Shown: positions 4,254-4,424 of the stretch, one piece after another
Numbering within the stretch: the first letter of the stretch is position 1
Layout: each line of letters begins with the position of its first letter
Source: a virus
Virus record (IMG/VR): IMGVR_UViG_3300046559_000446
Coordinates: 64,001-128,000 of that record
DNA: 64,000 nt
Reading direction: 5' to 3' (one strand)
Program-made: the position numbers and the translations under genes
Notes under the pieces: model-generated
Told to the model about the DNA's origin: nothing
What the model saw: only the letters and a program-made list of their open reading frames with translations
Database searches by the model: none

Positions 4254-4424
4254 AATTAATCGGCGGGTCTAGCAGCGGGATCGAACCGACACACCCGTCG
4301 CGGACAACTTACGTTGCAGCGAGAATAGAACCATCTCTTGTTGCCCACCCCCGGCCTTGTCGAGGTAAGAGCTTGCCCGCGCTTCGTACCTTACTCGCGG
4401 GTTCATCTGGCCCGCCGATCAACT
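4254..4424 (-). ncRNA. Candidate ~170-nt structured RNA, family unassigned
   Basis: 14-bp closing stem AGUUGAUCGGCGGG/CCCGCCGAUUAAUU with G-U pairs, CCCGCG/CGCGGG hairpin with possible GUAAG/CUUAC pseudoknot, CAAC-GUAA-GUUG GNRA hairpin, GGUUCGAUCC T-loop-like segment; no credible long ORF. Confidence 0.55.

What the first reader, a model, noticed from the sequence alone, without database searches (positions are those of the whole stretch)
4254..4424. Self-contained ~170-nt structured RNA candidate between two secreted-protein genes
Seen in sequence, minus strand: 14-bp terminal stem, CCCGCG/CGCGGG hairpin whose loop (GUAAGG) can pair with downstream UCUUAC as an H-type pseudoknot, GACAA/UUGUC long-range helix, GAGA/UCUC hairpin, CAAC-GUAA-GUUG tetraloop hairpin, CGAC/GUCG hairpin and a GGUUCGAUCC T-loop-like segment near the 3' end. 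With the tandem units, almost the whole 480-bp intergenic gap is paired. Inference: a phage ncRNA (6S-like size, tRNA/Y-RNA-like T-loop) or one domain of a longer ~450-nt RNA.
Basis: partly seen in the sequence, partly recalled or inferred. Interest (0 to 1): 0.72.

Follow-up and report, generated by a model that had tools for sequence, protein, structure and literature searches.

The report
Inserted structured RNA cassette in phage
A ~170-letter stretch between two genes of an uncultivated soil phage is a discrete inserted cassette that sister phages lack, and its second known copy has changed in ways that keep its hairpins paired; so it is probably a real structured RNA of unknown job, but it is not the tRNA-, Y-RNA- or 6S-like RNA first proposed.

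Summary

The informative result is comparative. The 138-kb record is two ~69-kb sister phage genomes joined head to tail. The element sits in copy 1. It is precisely absent from copy 2 and from 7 related viral contigs. The 14-bp terminal stem marks the ends of the inserted DNA.

Contigs from four soil and rhizosphere runs show filled and empty sites together. One run also holds a second, ~91% identical copy in a different (L006-like) phage background whose flanks are only ~80% alike. Of its 16 listed changes, 4 pairs are double-sided compensatory and only 1 base pair breaks (P about 3e-6 and 0.007 by simulation). Its 45-codon frame is destroyed.

The changes favour a long hairpin over the 'T-arm' and contradict two proposed helices.

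Best reading (0.5): an accessory, horizontally exchanged structured-RNA cassette in the leader of a secreted Gly-rich protein gene. Rivals are a MITE-like element and neutral filler.

No other copy was found anywhere. First readers noted this stretch twice more on this genome; the scan has not found it on other DNA.

The parts
4254..4424 (-). The element proper: a ~171-nt block closed by the terminal inverted repeat. It folds as a five-branch junction.
   Evidence: Fold. It is the only match to covariance model R1 in the whole 138-kb record.
4246..4434 (-). The span missing from the sister genome (189 nt; the junction can slide by 4 nt because ATCC stands on both sides). It is flanked by GAAATCC on the left and GATATCC on the right.
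   Evidence: Alignment of copy 1 with copy 2. The empty site is also seen in L004-L010 and in contigs of runs X1, X3, X12 and X23.
4411..4424 (-). P1, 5' arm (AGUUGAUCGGCGGG), which is the left terminal inverted repeat.
   Evidence: Pairs with 4254-4267. Compared with L010, the left edge of the insertion falls at the start of this arm.
4254..4267 (-). P1, 3' arm (CCCGCCGAUUAAUU), which is the right terminal inverted repeat.
   Evidence: In the second copy, U177C (window 4258) turns a G.U pair into G:C.
4376..4401 (-). P2 hairpin, CCCGCG / CGCGGG, with a 14-nt loop.
   Evidence: Two adjacent base pairs change on both sides in the second copy (G:C to A:U and C:G to U:A; window 4398/4379 and 4397/4380). 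One loop U is deleted at 4388.
4343..4372 (-). P3, a two-part hairpin with a G-rich 3' strand. It lies in a 38-nt stretch (4341-4378) that is identical in both copies.
   Evidence: MFE fold. Identity is inferred from where the unitigs of both variants break. No variation means no test of the pairing.
4321..4337 (-). P4, GAGA/UCUC, a 4-bp hairpin with a 9-nt loop (the 'D-arm' look-alike).
   Evidence: MFE fold. In the second copy the loop changes at G103U (window 4332) and the stem does not change.
4304..4317 (-). P5, the GCAAC-GUAA-GUUGU hairpin with a GNRA tetraloop.
   Evidence: A:U changes to G:C on both sides in the second copy (window 4315 and 4306).
4272..4301 (-). P6, a long irregular hairpin that contains the T-loop-like word GGUUCGAUCC (4278-4287).
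   Evidence: In the second copy C135:G162 becomes A:U and the A137.C160 mismatch becomes U:A, while G134:C163 is lost. The competing T-arm pairing gains only one one-sided repair.
4425..4438 (-). Small CCC-GCAA-GGG hairpin just upstream. It is not part of the insertion.
   Evidence: The same ATCCCGCAAGGG word stands in relative L010, 6 nt before the leader hairpin, with no element between them. Fold.
4446..4493 (-). Long hairpin ending tandem unit 2, followed by UUUUG. It looks like a terminator and lies upstream of the element.
   Evidence: Sequence, fold. Its sequence differs but it still pairs in copy 2 and in relatives.
4196..4243 (-). Conserved leader hairpin GCCAGGG-CGGCUU-CCCUGGC (4243-4224), Shine-Dalgarno GAGGAA (4211-4206) and the ATG (4198-4196) of the 120-aa Gly-rich secreted protein gene.
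   Evidence: The hairpin is kept, with compensating stem changes, in all relatives.

Best explanation
The stretch is an accessory cassette of about 170 nt that encodes only a structured RNA.

Shown:
- It is a discrete block bounded by its own 14-bp inverted repeat.
- It sits in the leader of the Gly-rich secreted-protein gene, on the strand on which every neighbouring gene is read.
- It is present in two diverged phage lineages at the same site, and each lineage has element-free siblings in the same soils.
- Its two copies are more alike (~91%) than their flanks (~80% or less).
- The differences between the copies preserve the predicted helices and destroy the reading frames.

Inferred:
- It entered once. 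It then spread between co-infecting relatives by homologous recombination through the conserved flanks. The right junction GATATCC of copy 1 is the L006-type empty-site word.
- It is transcribed by read-through as part of the leftward operon and folds independently into a five-branch junction closed by P1.
- It acts at the RNA level. My preferred mechanism, at about 30%, is a cis-acting leader domain: an aptamer-like or protein-binding platform whose P1 stem sets how the downstream leader and ribosome-binding site are presented.
- The second mechanism, at about 20%, is a stable ~170-nt RNA cut out at the P1 stem. P1 can be extended to 19 bp with a 4-nt bulge, which would suit RNase III. The excised RNA would then act in trans.
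For: -: the record is two colinear ~69-kb genomes at 77-94% identity.
- copy 2 has the same upstream gene end, the same tandem units (91-93% identical) and the same gene start, but lacks 189 nt.
- 7 related viral loci and 5 whole related records lack it, by BLAST and by covariance model.
- an identical 395-nt contig spans the filled site in 4 of 4 runs. Empty-site contigs co-occur at similar depth. A third variant in X3 carries a diverged copy, with a 30-nt left loose end matching L006's hairpin at 29 of 30 letters and a 12-nt right loose end matching the L006/L004-type gene start.
- on the fold predicted from the reference alone there are 4 double-sided compensatory pairs. P is 1.5e-5, or 3e-6 with only the visible positions; counting the adjacent doublet once gives P for 3 or more of 2e-4. 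Only 1 pair is broken, against 5.3 expected (P = 0.007).
- the 45-codon frame gets a stop at codon 4 and a frameshift in the second copy.
- all genes from window 1342 to 6293 lie on the minus strand.
- the minus-strand model uses 7-8 G.U pairs. It folds at lower energy than the plus strand, and more so in the variant (-70.0 against -59.0).
- the fold is unchanged in the full intergenic context.
- the only strong terminator lies after the downstream gene.
Against: - The covariation rests on only two sequences.
- The second copy is known only as a list of differences. One further substitution somewhere in 4411-4440 is not visible.
- Watson-Crick compensation is symmetric between strands and could reflect DNA hairpins. 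Templated repair within quasi-palindromes can make double changes without any selection on RNA.
- Fold energy is not better than shuffles.
- No promoter or terminator of its own was found.
- There is no expression evidence of any kind.
- Eight close relatives do without it, so it is dispensable.
- No partner protein was identified.
Confidence: 0.5

Rival explanations
1. It is a small non-autonomous transposable element (MITE-like). The 10-14-bp terminal inverted repeats would be recognised by a transposase encoded elsewhere, in the host or another phage. The internal hairpins would be incidental or act at the DNA level.
For: - It is a presence/absence polymorphism at a single site in two backgrounds.
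- The inverted repeat lies at the ends of the inserted block. In the second copy it becomes a perfect 10-bp repeat, GATCGGCGGG...CCCGCCGATC.
- It is flanked by AGTT / AATT, which could be a 4-bp target duplication.
- The size is typical of MITEs.
Against: - There is a single copy in the 138-kb record, by BLAST and by covariance model.
- There is none in 5 related whole phage records, none in the phage and plasmid collections, and none in 401 bacterial genomes.
- A pattern scan combining the repeat core with an internal word, run over one genome for each of 185,579 species, gave only a chance hit. A repeat-only scan of viral contigs gave 23 unrelated stretches.
- AGTT/AATT can equally be read as an extension of the inverted repeat.
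- No transposase or integrase was found.
- Compensatory changes in three internal hairpins are not expected of a passive MITE.
- Both copies sit at the same site, which recombination explains.
Confidence: 0.2
2. It is neutral filler DNA captured once by illegitimate recombination at a hotspot for module exchange. The hairpins would be the chance content of 60% G+C sequence, and the paired changes would come from template switching within quasi-palindromes.
For: - Fold energy is within the range of shuffles.
- It is an orphan sequence with no relatives anywhere.
- It is dispensable in 8 relatives.
- The intergenic region clearly gains and loses modules: 0, 1 or 2 tandem units, and an extra ORF in L009.
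Against: - Four compensatory pairs in three separate hairpins, with only one broken pair out of 10 substitutions at paired positions.
- The element is less diverged than its flanks.
- It is kept in two lineages found in 24 runs.
Confidence: 0.15
3. It is a tRNA mimic (YrlA/Y-RNA-like, tmRNA-like or a degenerate tRNA gene). Its T- and D-arm look-alikes would recruit tRNA-handling enzymes (RNase P, TruB) or Ro60, or act as a decoy for anticodon nucleases.
For: - GGUUCGAUCC matches the T-loop consensus, and a 4-bp hairpin has a UGGU loop.
- tRNA-Sec is the only Rfam model that matches at all (19.3 bits).
- C160A in the second copy would repair the U.C mismatch of the putative T-stem.
Against: - The score is far below the gathering score of 47, with E = 0.14-0.77.
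- ARAGORN gives nothing at default or -ps settings. Only nonsense models appear at 50-70% thresholds.
- There is no 7-nt anticodon loop, no CCA context and no 7-bp acceptor stem.
- The second copy changes the first G of the 'D-loop' GG and breaks a model acceptor pair.
- Covariation at 135:162 supports a helix that is incompatible with a T-arm.
- There is no TROVE gene in the phage.
- The YrlA motif GNCGAAN0-1G (PMC4201824) is absent; the nearest word is UACGAAG, in the P2 loop.
Confidence: 0.04
4. It is a DNA-level signal, for example a single-strand initiation or primosome site, a recombination site, or a protein-binding palindrome cluster used in replication or packaging.
For: - Compensatory changes that keep Watson-Crick pairs are equally compatible with hairpins in single-stranded DNA of either strand.
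- For three P6 positions, the plus-strand reading keeps pairing slightly better, by hand-reading the complements of the positions.
Against: - Sister genomes replicate and package without it.
- No integrase was found.
- G.U (G.T) pairs are concentrated on the transcribed strand.
- It lies inside an operon leader rather than at a switch of replication or transcription direction.
Confidence: 0.08

Closest known systems
Phage 'morons' (extra transcription units inserted between two genes of one phage and absent from close relatives). Concept recalled from the lambdoid-phage literature, not checked here.
   Same: It is a discrete extra block lying between two conserved genes, next to a terminator-like hairpin. 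It is present in some siblings and cleanly absent from others, and it is apparently exchanged among relatives.
   Different: It carries no protein gene and no recognisable promoter or terminator of its own. The cargo is only a structured RNA of about 170 nt.
MPME1/MPME2 ultra-small mobile elements of mycobacteriophages, and bacterial MITEs. Papers listed, e.g. PMC3029335, title only seen. The MPME and MITE properties used in this comparison (size, small ORF, target duplications) are from memory and were not read in those papers.
   Same: Short inverted-repeat ends and presence/absence polymorphism between near-identical phage genomes.
   Different: It is much smaller than an MPME and has no ORF. 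Only one copy per genome was found, with no family in any collection searched. Both known copies are at the same site. The target duplication is ambiguous. The internal helices covary.
YrlA / bacterial Y RNAs (PMC4201824)
   Same: Similar size, a long stem formed by the 5' and 3' ends, and T-loop-like and D-loop-like words. YrlA-like RNAs do occur in phages.
   Different: There is no Ro60 (TROVE) gene within 4 kb or anywhere in the phage. The GNCGAAN0-1G motif is missing. There is no Rfam hit at E <= 10. The variant alters the 'D-loop' and favours a non-T-arm helix.
Riboswitch-type leader aptamers (multi-helix junction closed by a P1 stem upstream of a ribosome-binding site)
   Same: A P1-closed multi-branch junction on the sense strand, about 45 nt upstream of the Shine-Dalgarno of the next gene, containing a GNRA tetraloop.
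   Different: It matches none of the Rfam riboswitch classes. It was acquired as an insertion and is absent from orthologous leaders. No expression platform was identified and no ligand is suggested by the gene.
The neighbouring tandem 'junction RNA' units of the same intergenic gap
   Same: Same strand, same modular and structured intercistronic region. Both are unmatched in Rfam.
   Different: The units are conserved across relatives; the element is not. BLAST and the covariance model found no other place in the record like the element.

Membership tests
tRNA / tRNA-Sec (Rfam clan CL00001) | Covariance-model score at or above the gathering score | tested here: not met
   tRNA-Sec scores 19.3 bits against 47, with E = 0.77 on 1.2 kb and 0.14 on 211 nt. 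No RF00005 hit was listed.
tRNA / tRNA-Sec (Rfam clan CL00001) | Cloverleaf with a 7-bp acceptor stem, a 7-nt anticodon loop, and D-loop GG and T-loop contacts | tested here: not met
   ARAGORN finds none at default or -ps settings. The 'anticodon' hairpin has a 4-nt GUAA loop. The second copy changes G103 of the GG and breaks the C92:G162 pair.
tmRNA | tRNA-Ala-like acceptor and T-arm with a CCA end, plus a resume codon and tag reading frame | tested here: not met
   ARAGORN -m finds none. Only a meaningless permuted model on the opposite strand appears at the 50% threshold. There is no Rfam tmRNA hit. The internal ATG becomes ATT in the second copy.
YrlA / Y RNA | Encoded within about 4 kb of a Ro60 (TROVE) gene on the same strand (PMC4201824) | tested here: not met
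   PF05731 gives no match in the 138-kb record, while the controls ring in Deinococcus and Bacteroides. A host Ro60 cannot be checked because the host is unknown.
YrlA / Y RNA | GNCGAAN0-1G motif near the 5' end, and conserved T and D stem-loops (PMC4201824) | tested here: not met
   The motif is absent; the nearest word is UACGAAG, in the P2 loop. There is no Rfam Y-RNA-type hit at E <= 10. Covariation favours a helix that excludes the T-arm.
6S RNA | Rod-like duplex with a large central bubble; Rfam 6S models | tested here: not met
   The predicted fold is a five-branch junction. There is no 6S hit.
MITE / non-autonomous inverted-repeat transposon | Terminal inverted repeats at the ends of the inserted DNA | tested here: met
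   There is a 14-bp repeat with two transitions, or a 10-bp core that is perfect in the second copy. It lies at the indel boundaries defined against L010 and copy 2.
MITE / non-autonomous inverted-repeat transposon | Target-site duplication directly flanking the repeats | tested here: inconclusive
   AGTT / AATT (3 of 4 matching) flank the 10-bp core but can equally be read as an extension of the repeat. The outer ATCC repeat lies 6-12 nt away from the repeats.
MITE / non-autonomous inverted-repeat transposon | Multiple dispersed copies in some genome | tested here: not met
   There is a single copy in its own record. None was found in related phages, the phage or plasmid collections, 401 bacterial genomes, or pattern scans of the viral, metagenome and genome collections. 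The searches were limited, and the host genome is unknown.
Retron msr-msd RNA | Adjacent reverse transcriptase gene | tested here: not met
   PF00078 gives no match in the record. The downstream gene is a 120-aa Gly-rich secreted protein.
attP core carrying the 3' end of a host tRNA or tmRNA gene | A phage integrase, and identity to a real tRNA 3' half | tested here: not met
   PF00589 gives no match. The T-arm-plus-3'-flank word (i = 146-170, which also carries element-specific sequence) is absent from viral contigs. The genome and metagenome scans returned only unrelated tRNA-Phe genes or chance hits.
Moron-type accessory insertion | A discrete block between conserved genes, present or absent among close relatives | tested here: met
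Moron-type accessory insertion | Own promoter and terminator | tested here: not met
   There are no sigma-70-like sites in 3500-5600, and the only strong terminator is at 3811-3782. The phage's or host's promoter type may differ from the consensus used.

The most novel reading that the evidence does not exclude
A new kind of phage accessory element: an 'RNA-only moron'. This would be a self-folding ~170-nt RNA cassette that moves between related soil phages at a conserved leader site and gives its carrier a trans-acting RNA, for example a decoy or sponge for a host nuclease or defence protein. That would explain why carriers and non-carriers coexist at similar abundance in the same soils.
Probability: 0.15. 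Interest if true: 0.7.

Novelty: new variant of a known kind. Interest (0 to 1): 0.45.

Why it matters
If the fold is functional, it shows that phages trade not only protein-coding morons but also free-standing structured-RNA modules. It would also add an uncatalogued RNA fold to a leader region already full of unclassified RNA modules.

Filled and empty alleles coexist in the same soils. That gives a natural with/without comparison for testing what such an RNA does.

For the scan itself, two lessons follow. First, the T-loop-like word and the hairpin inventory were not the real signal; the presence/absence pattern and the compensatory changes were. Second, the '138-kb complete genome' is really two ~69-kb genomes joined.

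Tried and rejected
- Rfam at gathering thresholds and at E <= 10: only a sub-threshold tRNA-Sec match.
- ARAGORN, including relaxed thresholds and the intron and tmRNA modes: nothing credible.
- Exact or gapped pattern scans:
  - Viral contigs with a T-arm word, a D-loop-plus-T-loop word, a 20-mer from the invariant core, and the inverted repeat alone: either nothing, or 23 unrelated, mostly coding stretches scoring at most 12 bits with model R1.
  - Metagenome contigs with D-loop plus T-loop: phage tRNA-Phe genes and chance hits.
  - Genome contigs with repeat plus T-loop: one chance hit in a coding region.
- blastn against phages and plasmids: no match.
- 401 bacterial genomes of one class: only 19-39-nt chance matches.
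- Covariance model R1 on the record itself and on 5 related records: only the self-match.
- The search for related loci with the third secreted protein and the search for homologous proteins with the Gly-rich protein: nothing.
The 24+32 contigs of the P0001/P0024 cluster, which probably hold more copies, could not be fetched.
- No RNA holder was listed among the sequencing runs.
- Ribosome-binding-site accessibility with and without the element: the global folds were unstable, so it was not used.
- Genes specific to copy 1 as a possible partner: three ORFs with no family.
- Considered and rejected: hammerhead (CAGAUGA lacks the U-turn U, there is no GAAA box, and there is no Rfam hit), group I intron (too small and not in a conserved gene), integron attC, and IS200/IS605-type ends (the ends pair with each other rather than forming subterminal hairpins).
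Full report
**What is at the coordinates**

- A 14-bp closing stem, 4424-4411 with 4267-4254. It has nine perfect G/C-rich pairs, then A-U pairs and two G.U pairs.
- A CCCGCG/CGCGGG hairpin.
- A bipartite G-rich hairpin.
- A 4-bp GAGA/UCUC hairpin.
- A GCAAC-GUAA-GUUGU hairpin.
- A 3' hairpin containing GGUUCGAUCC.

RNAfold returns this self-contained five-branch fold for the 171 nt, for the 189-nt indel span and for the whole 492-nt intergenic gap.

Thermodynamically it is unremarkable. 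The 171 nt give z = -1.19, with 20 of 200 dinucleotide shuffles folding as well. The plus strand gives -2.37. The whole gap gives -1.53.

**Known families**

- cmscan finds nothing at gathering thresholds in the 64-kb window.
- At E <= 10 the only match on the element is tRNA-Sec. It scores 19.3 bits against a gathering score of 47, with E = 0.77 on 1.2 kb and 0.14 on 211 nt. There is no 6S, tmRNA, Y-RNA, riboswitch or ribozyme hit.
- ARAGORN finds no tRNA or tmRNA in the window. It finds none on the element at default or 95% thresholds. Models appear only at 50-70% thresholds, and they are mutually inconsistent.
- The phage record has no TROVE/Ro60, no reverse transcriptase and no tyrosine integrase. 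The positive controls rang in each of these searches.
- The YrlA criteria in PMC4201824 are a location within 4 kb of Ro60, the motif GNCGAAN0-1G, and T and D stem-loops. They are not met.

**The informative result: it is an insertion**

The window is bases 64001-128000 of a 138,254-bp IMG/VR record. A self-comparison shows that this record is two colinear ~69-kb genomes joined head to tail, at 77-94% identity. Its 99-bp 'terminal repeat' is simply the shared junction.

The finding lies near the end of copy 1. The homologous place in copy 2 has the same end of the upstream gene and the same two tandem RNA-like units (91-93% identical). It also has the same leader hairpin, Shine-Dalgarno and start codon. 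It lacks 189 nt, window 4434-4246.

Seven related viral contigs share the flanking protein at 65-77% amino-acid identity. All of them lack the element at this site. Five of those records, searched whole, lack it everywhere by BLAST and by a covariance model built on the element.

Relative L010 carries the small ATCCCGCAAGGG hairpin directly before the leader hairpin, with only 6 nt between them. That small hairpin is therefore not part of the insertion, and the inserted block begins and ends essentially at the inverted repeat. The 14-bp 'terminal stem' is thus the two ends of an inserted piece of DNA.

**Population evidence**

- All 34 sampled 31-mers of window 4150-4540 are held by at least 24 soil and rhizosphere runs from 2020 and 2023. 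These may be one campaign and may include the source sample.
- I laid the contigs of four runs on 3900-4800. An identical 395-nt contig spans the filled site (4172-4566) in all four.
- Empty-site contigs occur in the same runs at comparable depth. In three runs (X3, X12, X23) they show as a joint from 4249 to 4498 with 60 other letters, which is the copy-2 form. In X1 they show as a loose end at 4249 that reads like copy 2. Depths are 8.5 against 18.4 in X12 and 20.3 against 19.8 in X23.
- Run X3 also holds a third form, a diverged copy of the element (records 27 and 29). Its left loose end matches the long hairpin of relative L006 at 29 of 30 letters. Its right loose end has the L006/L004-type signal-peptide codons (compare). 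L006 itself lacks the element.

So the element occurs in two diverged backgrounds, and each has element-free siblings.

The two copies differ at 16 listed substitutions and one 1-nt deletion in 189 nt, about 91% identity. By the listing rule, one more substitution in 4411-4440 is hidden. The adjoining 71 nt toward the gene carry about 7 substitutions and 7 gap letters, about 80% identity or less. The left flank fails to align at 85%. The right junction word of copy 1, GATATCC, is the L006-type empty-site word, while its left junction, GAAATCC, is the copy-2 type. This fits spread by homologous recombination between co-infecting relatives.

**Covariation**

I applied the listed differences to the reference and scored them on the fold predicted from the reference alone. 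Positions i count along the minus strand; the window position is 4435 - i.
- G37A and C38U are matched by C56U and G55A. These are two pairs of the CCCGCG hairpin.
- A120G is matched by U129C, in the GUAA hairpin.
- C135A is matched by G162U, in the 3' hairpin.
- A137U together with C160A turns a mismatch into U:A.
- U177C turns a G.U pair of the closing stem into G:C.
- Only G134:C163 is lost.
- The remaining changes lie in loops or junctions: C95U, G103U, C132G, C133A and the deletion of U47.

I then simulated 16 substitutions, with the same number of transitions and transversions, placed only where differences could have been listed. Four or more compensatory pairs occurred with P about 3e-6. 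Three or more, counting the adjacent doublet once, occurred with P about 2e-4. One or fewer broken pairs occurred with P = 0.007, against a mean of 5.3.

The 45-codon frame inside the element (4406-4269) acquires a stop at codon 4 and a frameshift in the second copy. A protein-coding explanation is therefore excluded.

**What the variant says about the proposed anatomy**

It supports the closing stem, the CCCGCG hairpin and the GUAA hairpin.

It contradicts GACAA/UUGUC. That helix overlaps the supported GUAA hairpin and would lose A77:U129. It also contradicts CGAC/GUCG, where two pairs would be lost.

For the 3' domain, there are two competing pairings. The long irregular hairpin pairs 134-136 with 161-163, 138-141 with 156-159, and 145-148 with 152-155. 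It gains one clean compensatory pair and one mismatch-to-pair change. The competing T-arm (145-149 / 157-161) gains only a one-sided repair. G103U removes one of the two 'D-loop' Gs, and G162U breaks a pair of the tRNA-Sec-type acceptor. The tRNA-like look is therefore most likely coincidental.

Nothing varies in 4341-4378. This stretch is identical in both copies, inferred from where the unitigs break. So the bipartite hairpin and the suggested pseudoknot remain untested.

**Strand**

Watson-Crick compensation cannot tell the strands apart, and both strands score similarly. Several things favour the minus strand.
- Every gene from 1342 to 6293 is on it.
- The minus-strand model uses 7-8 G.U pairs, which would be A.C mismatches on the other strand.
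- It folds at lower energy, and more so in the variant (-70.0 against -59.0).

Three positions of the 3' hairpin read slightly better on the plus strand; I judged this by hand from the complements of the positions. A DNA-hairpin explanation therefore cannot be excluded.

**Search for other copies or a source**

No other copy was found in any of these searches:
- its own record;
- the phage and plasmid collections;
- 401 bacterial genomes of one class;
- pattern scans of the viral, metagenome and species-representative genome collections, whose hits were tRNA-Phe genes of unrelated phages or chance.

'Orphan' therefore means not found in what could be searched.

**Context**

The phage is a tailed dsDNA phage with DNA polymerase, primase, terminase and portal. 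It has a GcrA-like regulator, which suggests an alphaproteobacterial host.

The element sits after a terminator-like hairpin (4493-4446, followed by UUUUG). It lies 10 nt before a conserved leader hairpin (4243-4224) and about 45 nt before the Shine-Dalgarno of a 120-aa Gly-rich secreted protein gene. The only strong intrinsic terminator follows that gene. The intergenic region is modular among relatives: they have 0, 1 or 2 tandem units, an extra ORF in L009, and the mini-hairpin in some.

**Interpretation**

- Best supported (0.5): an accessory, horizontally exchanged cassette whose only cargo is a structured RNA. It would be transcribed with the leftward operon. It would act either in cis as a leader domain for the downstream gene (about 0.3), or as a ~170-nt RNA released at its closing stem (about 0.2).
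- Rivals: a MITE-like selfish element (0.2), neutral filler with templated palindrome repair (0.15), a DNA-level signal (0.08) and a tRNA/Y-RNA mimic (0.04).

The evidence rests on two sequences and on no expression data, so this stays a candidate. It is worth a modest follow-up because the decisive data, more natural copies and metatranscriptomes from the same soils, should already exist.

Noticed in passing
whole record G000:C1:1-138254 (the window is 64001-128000): The '138-kb, 100% complete, direct terminal repeat' virus record is two colinear ~69-kb genomes at 77-94% identity joined head to tail. The boundary is near base 69299 of the record, which is window 5299. The 99-bp terminal repeat is just the shared junction. 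The record is probably two co-occurring strains assembled into one circle, so its size and completeness labels are misleading.
   Followed up: partly
G000:C1:4828-6402 (L062:329-1903), outside the window: A 1.57-kb block specific to copy 1. It is replaced by about 70 bp in copy 2 and holds three ORFs (110, 164 and 201 aa) with no Pfam or PHROG match. It is another accessory insertion, a few kb from the element on the circular map.
   Followed up: partly
window 4224-4243 (-) and the matching places in L004-L010: The leader hairpin GCCAGGG-loop-CCCUGGC, just before the ribosome-binding site of the Gly-rich protein gene, is kept in every relative with compensating stem changes (GCCGGGG/CCCCGG, GCCAAGG/CCUUGGC, GCCGGGA/UCCCGGC). 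It is a conserved 5'-leader structure in its own right.
   Followed up: no
L010:4705-4750 and window 4425-4438 (-): The 12-nt word ATCCCGCAAGGG (a CCC-GCAA-GGG mini-hairpin) is shared by the most distant relative, L010, and by the element-bearing genomes. It is missing from the closer element-free relatives. This points to repeated module exchange in this leader.
   Followed up: no
window 1342-1785 (-) and 2589-3056 (-): A GcrA-like cell-cycle regulator (PF07750, E = 2e-12) and a weak MazG-like pyrophosphohydrolase match (21.5 bits against a curated cut-off of 22) lie in the same leftward block. The first suggests an alphaproteobacterial host.
   Followed up: no
L009:4717-5000: In relative L009 an extra open reading frame sits between the P0001 homologue and a single tandem unit. 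This is another variant of the same modular region.
   Followed up: no
L025:1236-1330 (-), L026:564-640 (-): Two metagenome contigs carry tRNA-like 3' parts (D-loop word, T-arm, CCA-like end) that ARAGORN does not call as tRNA genes. They are unrelated to the element.
   Followed up: no
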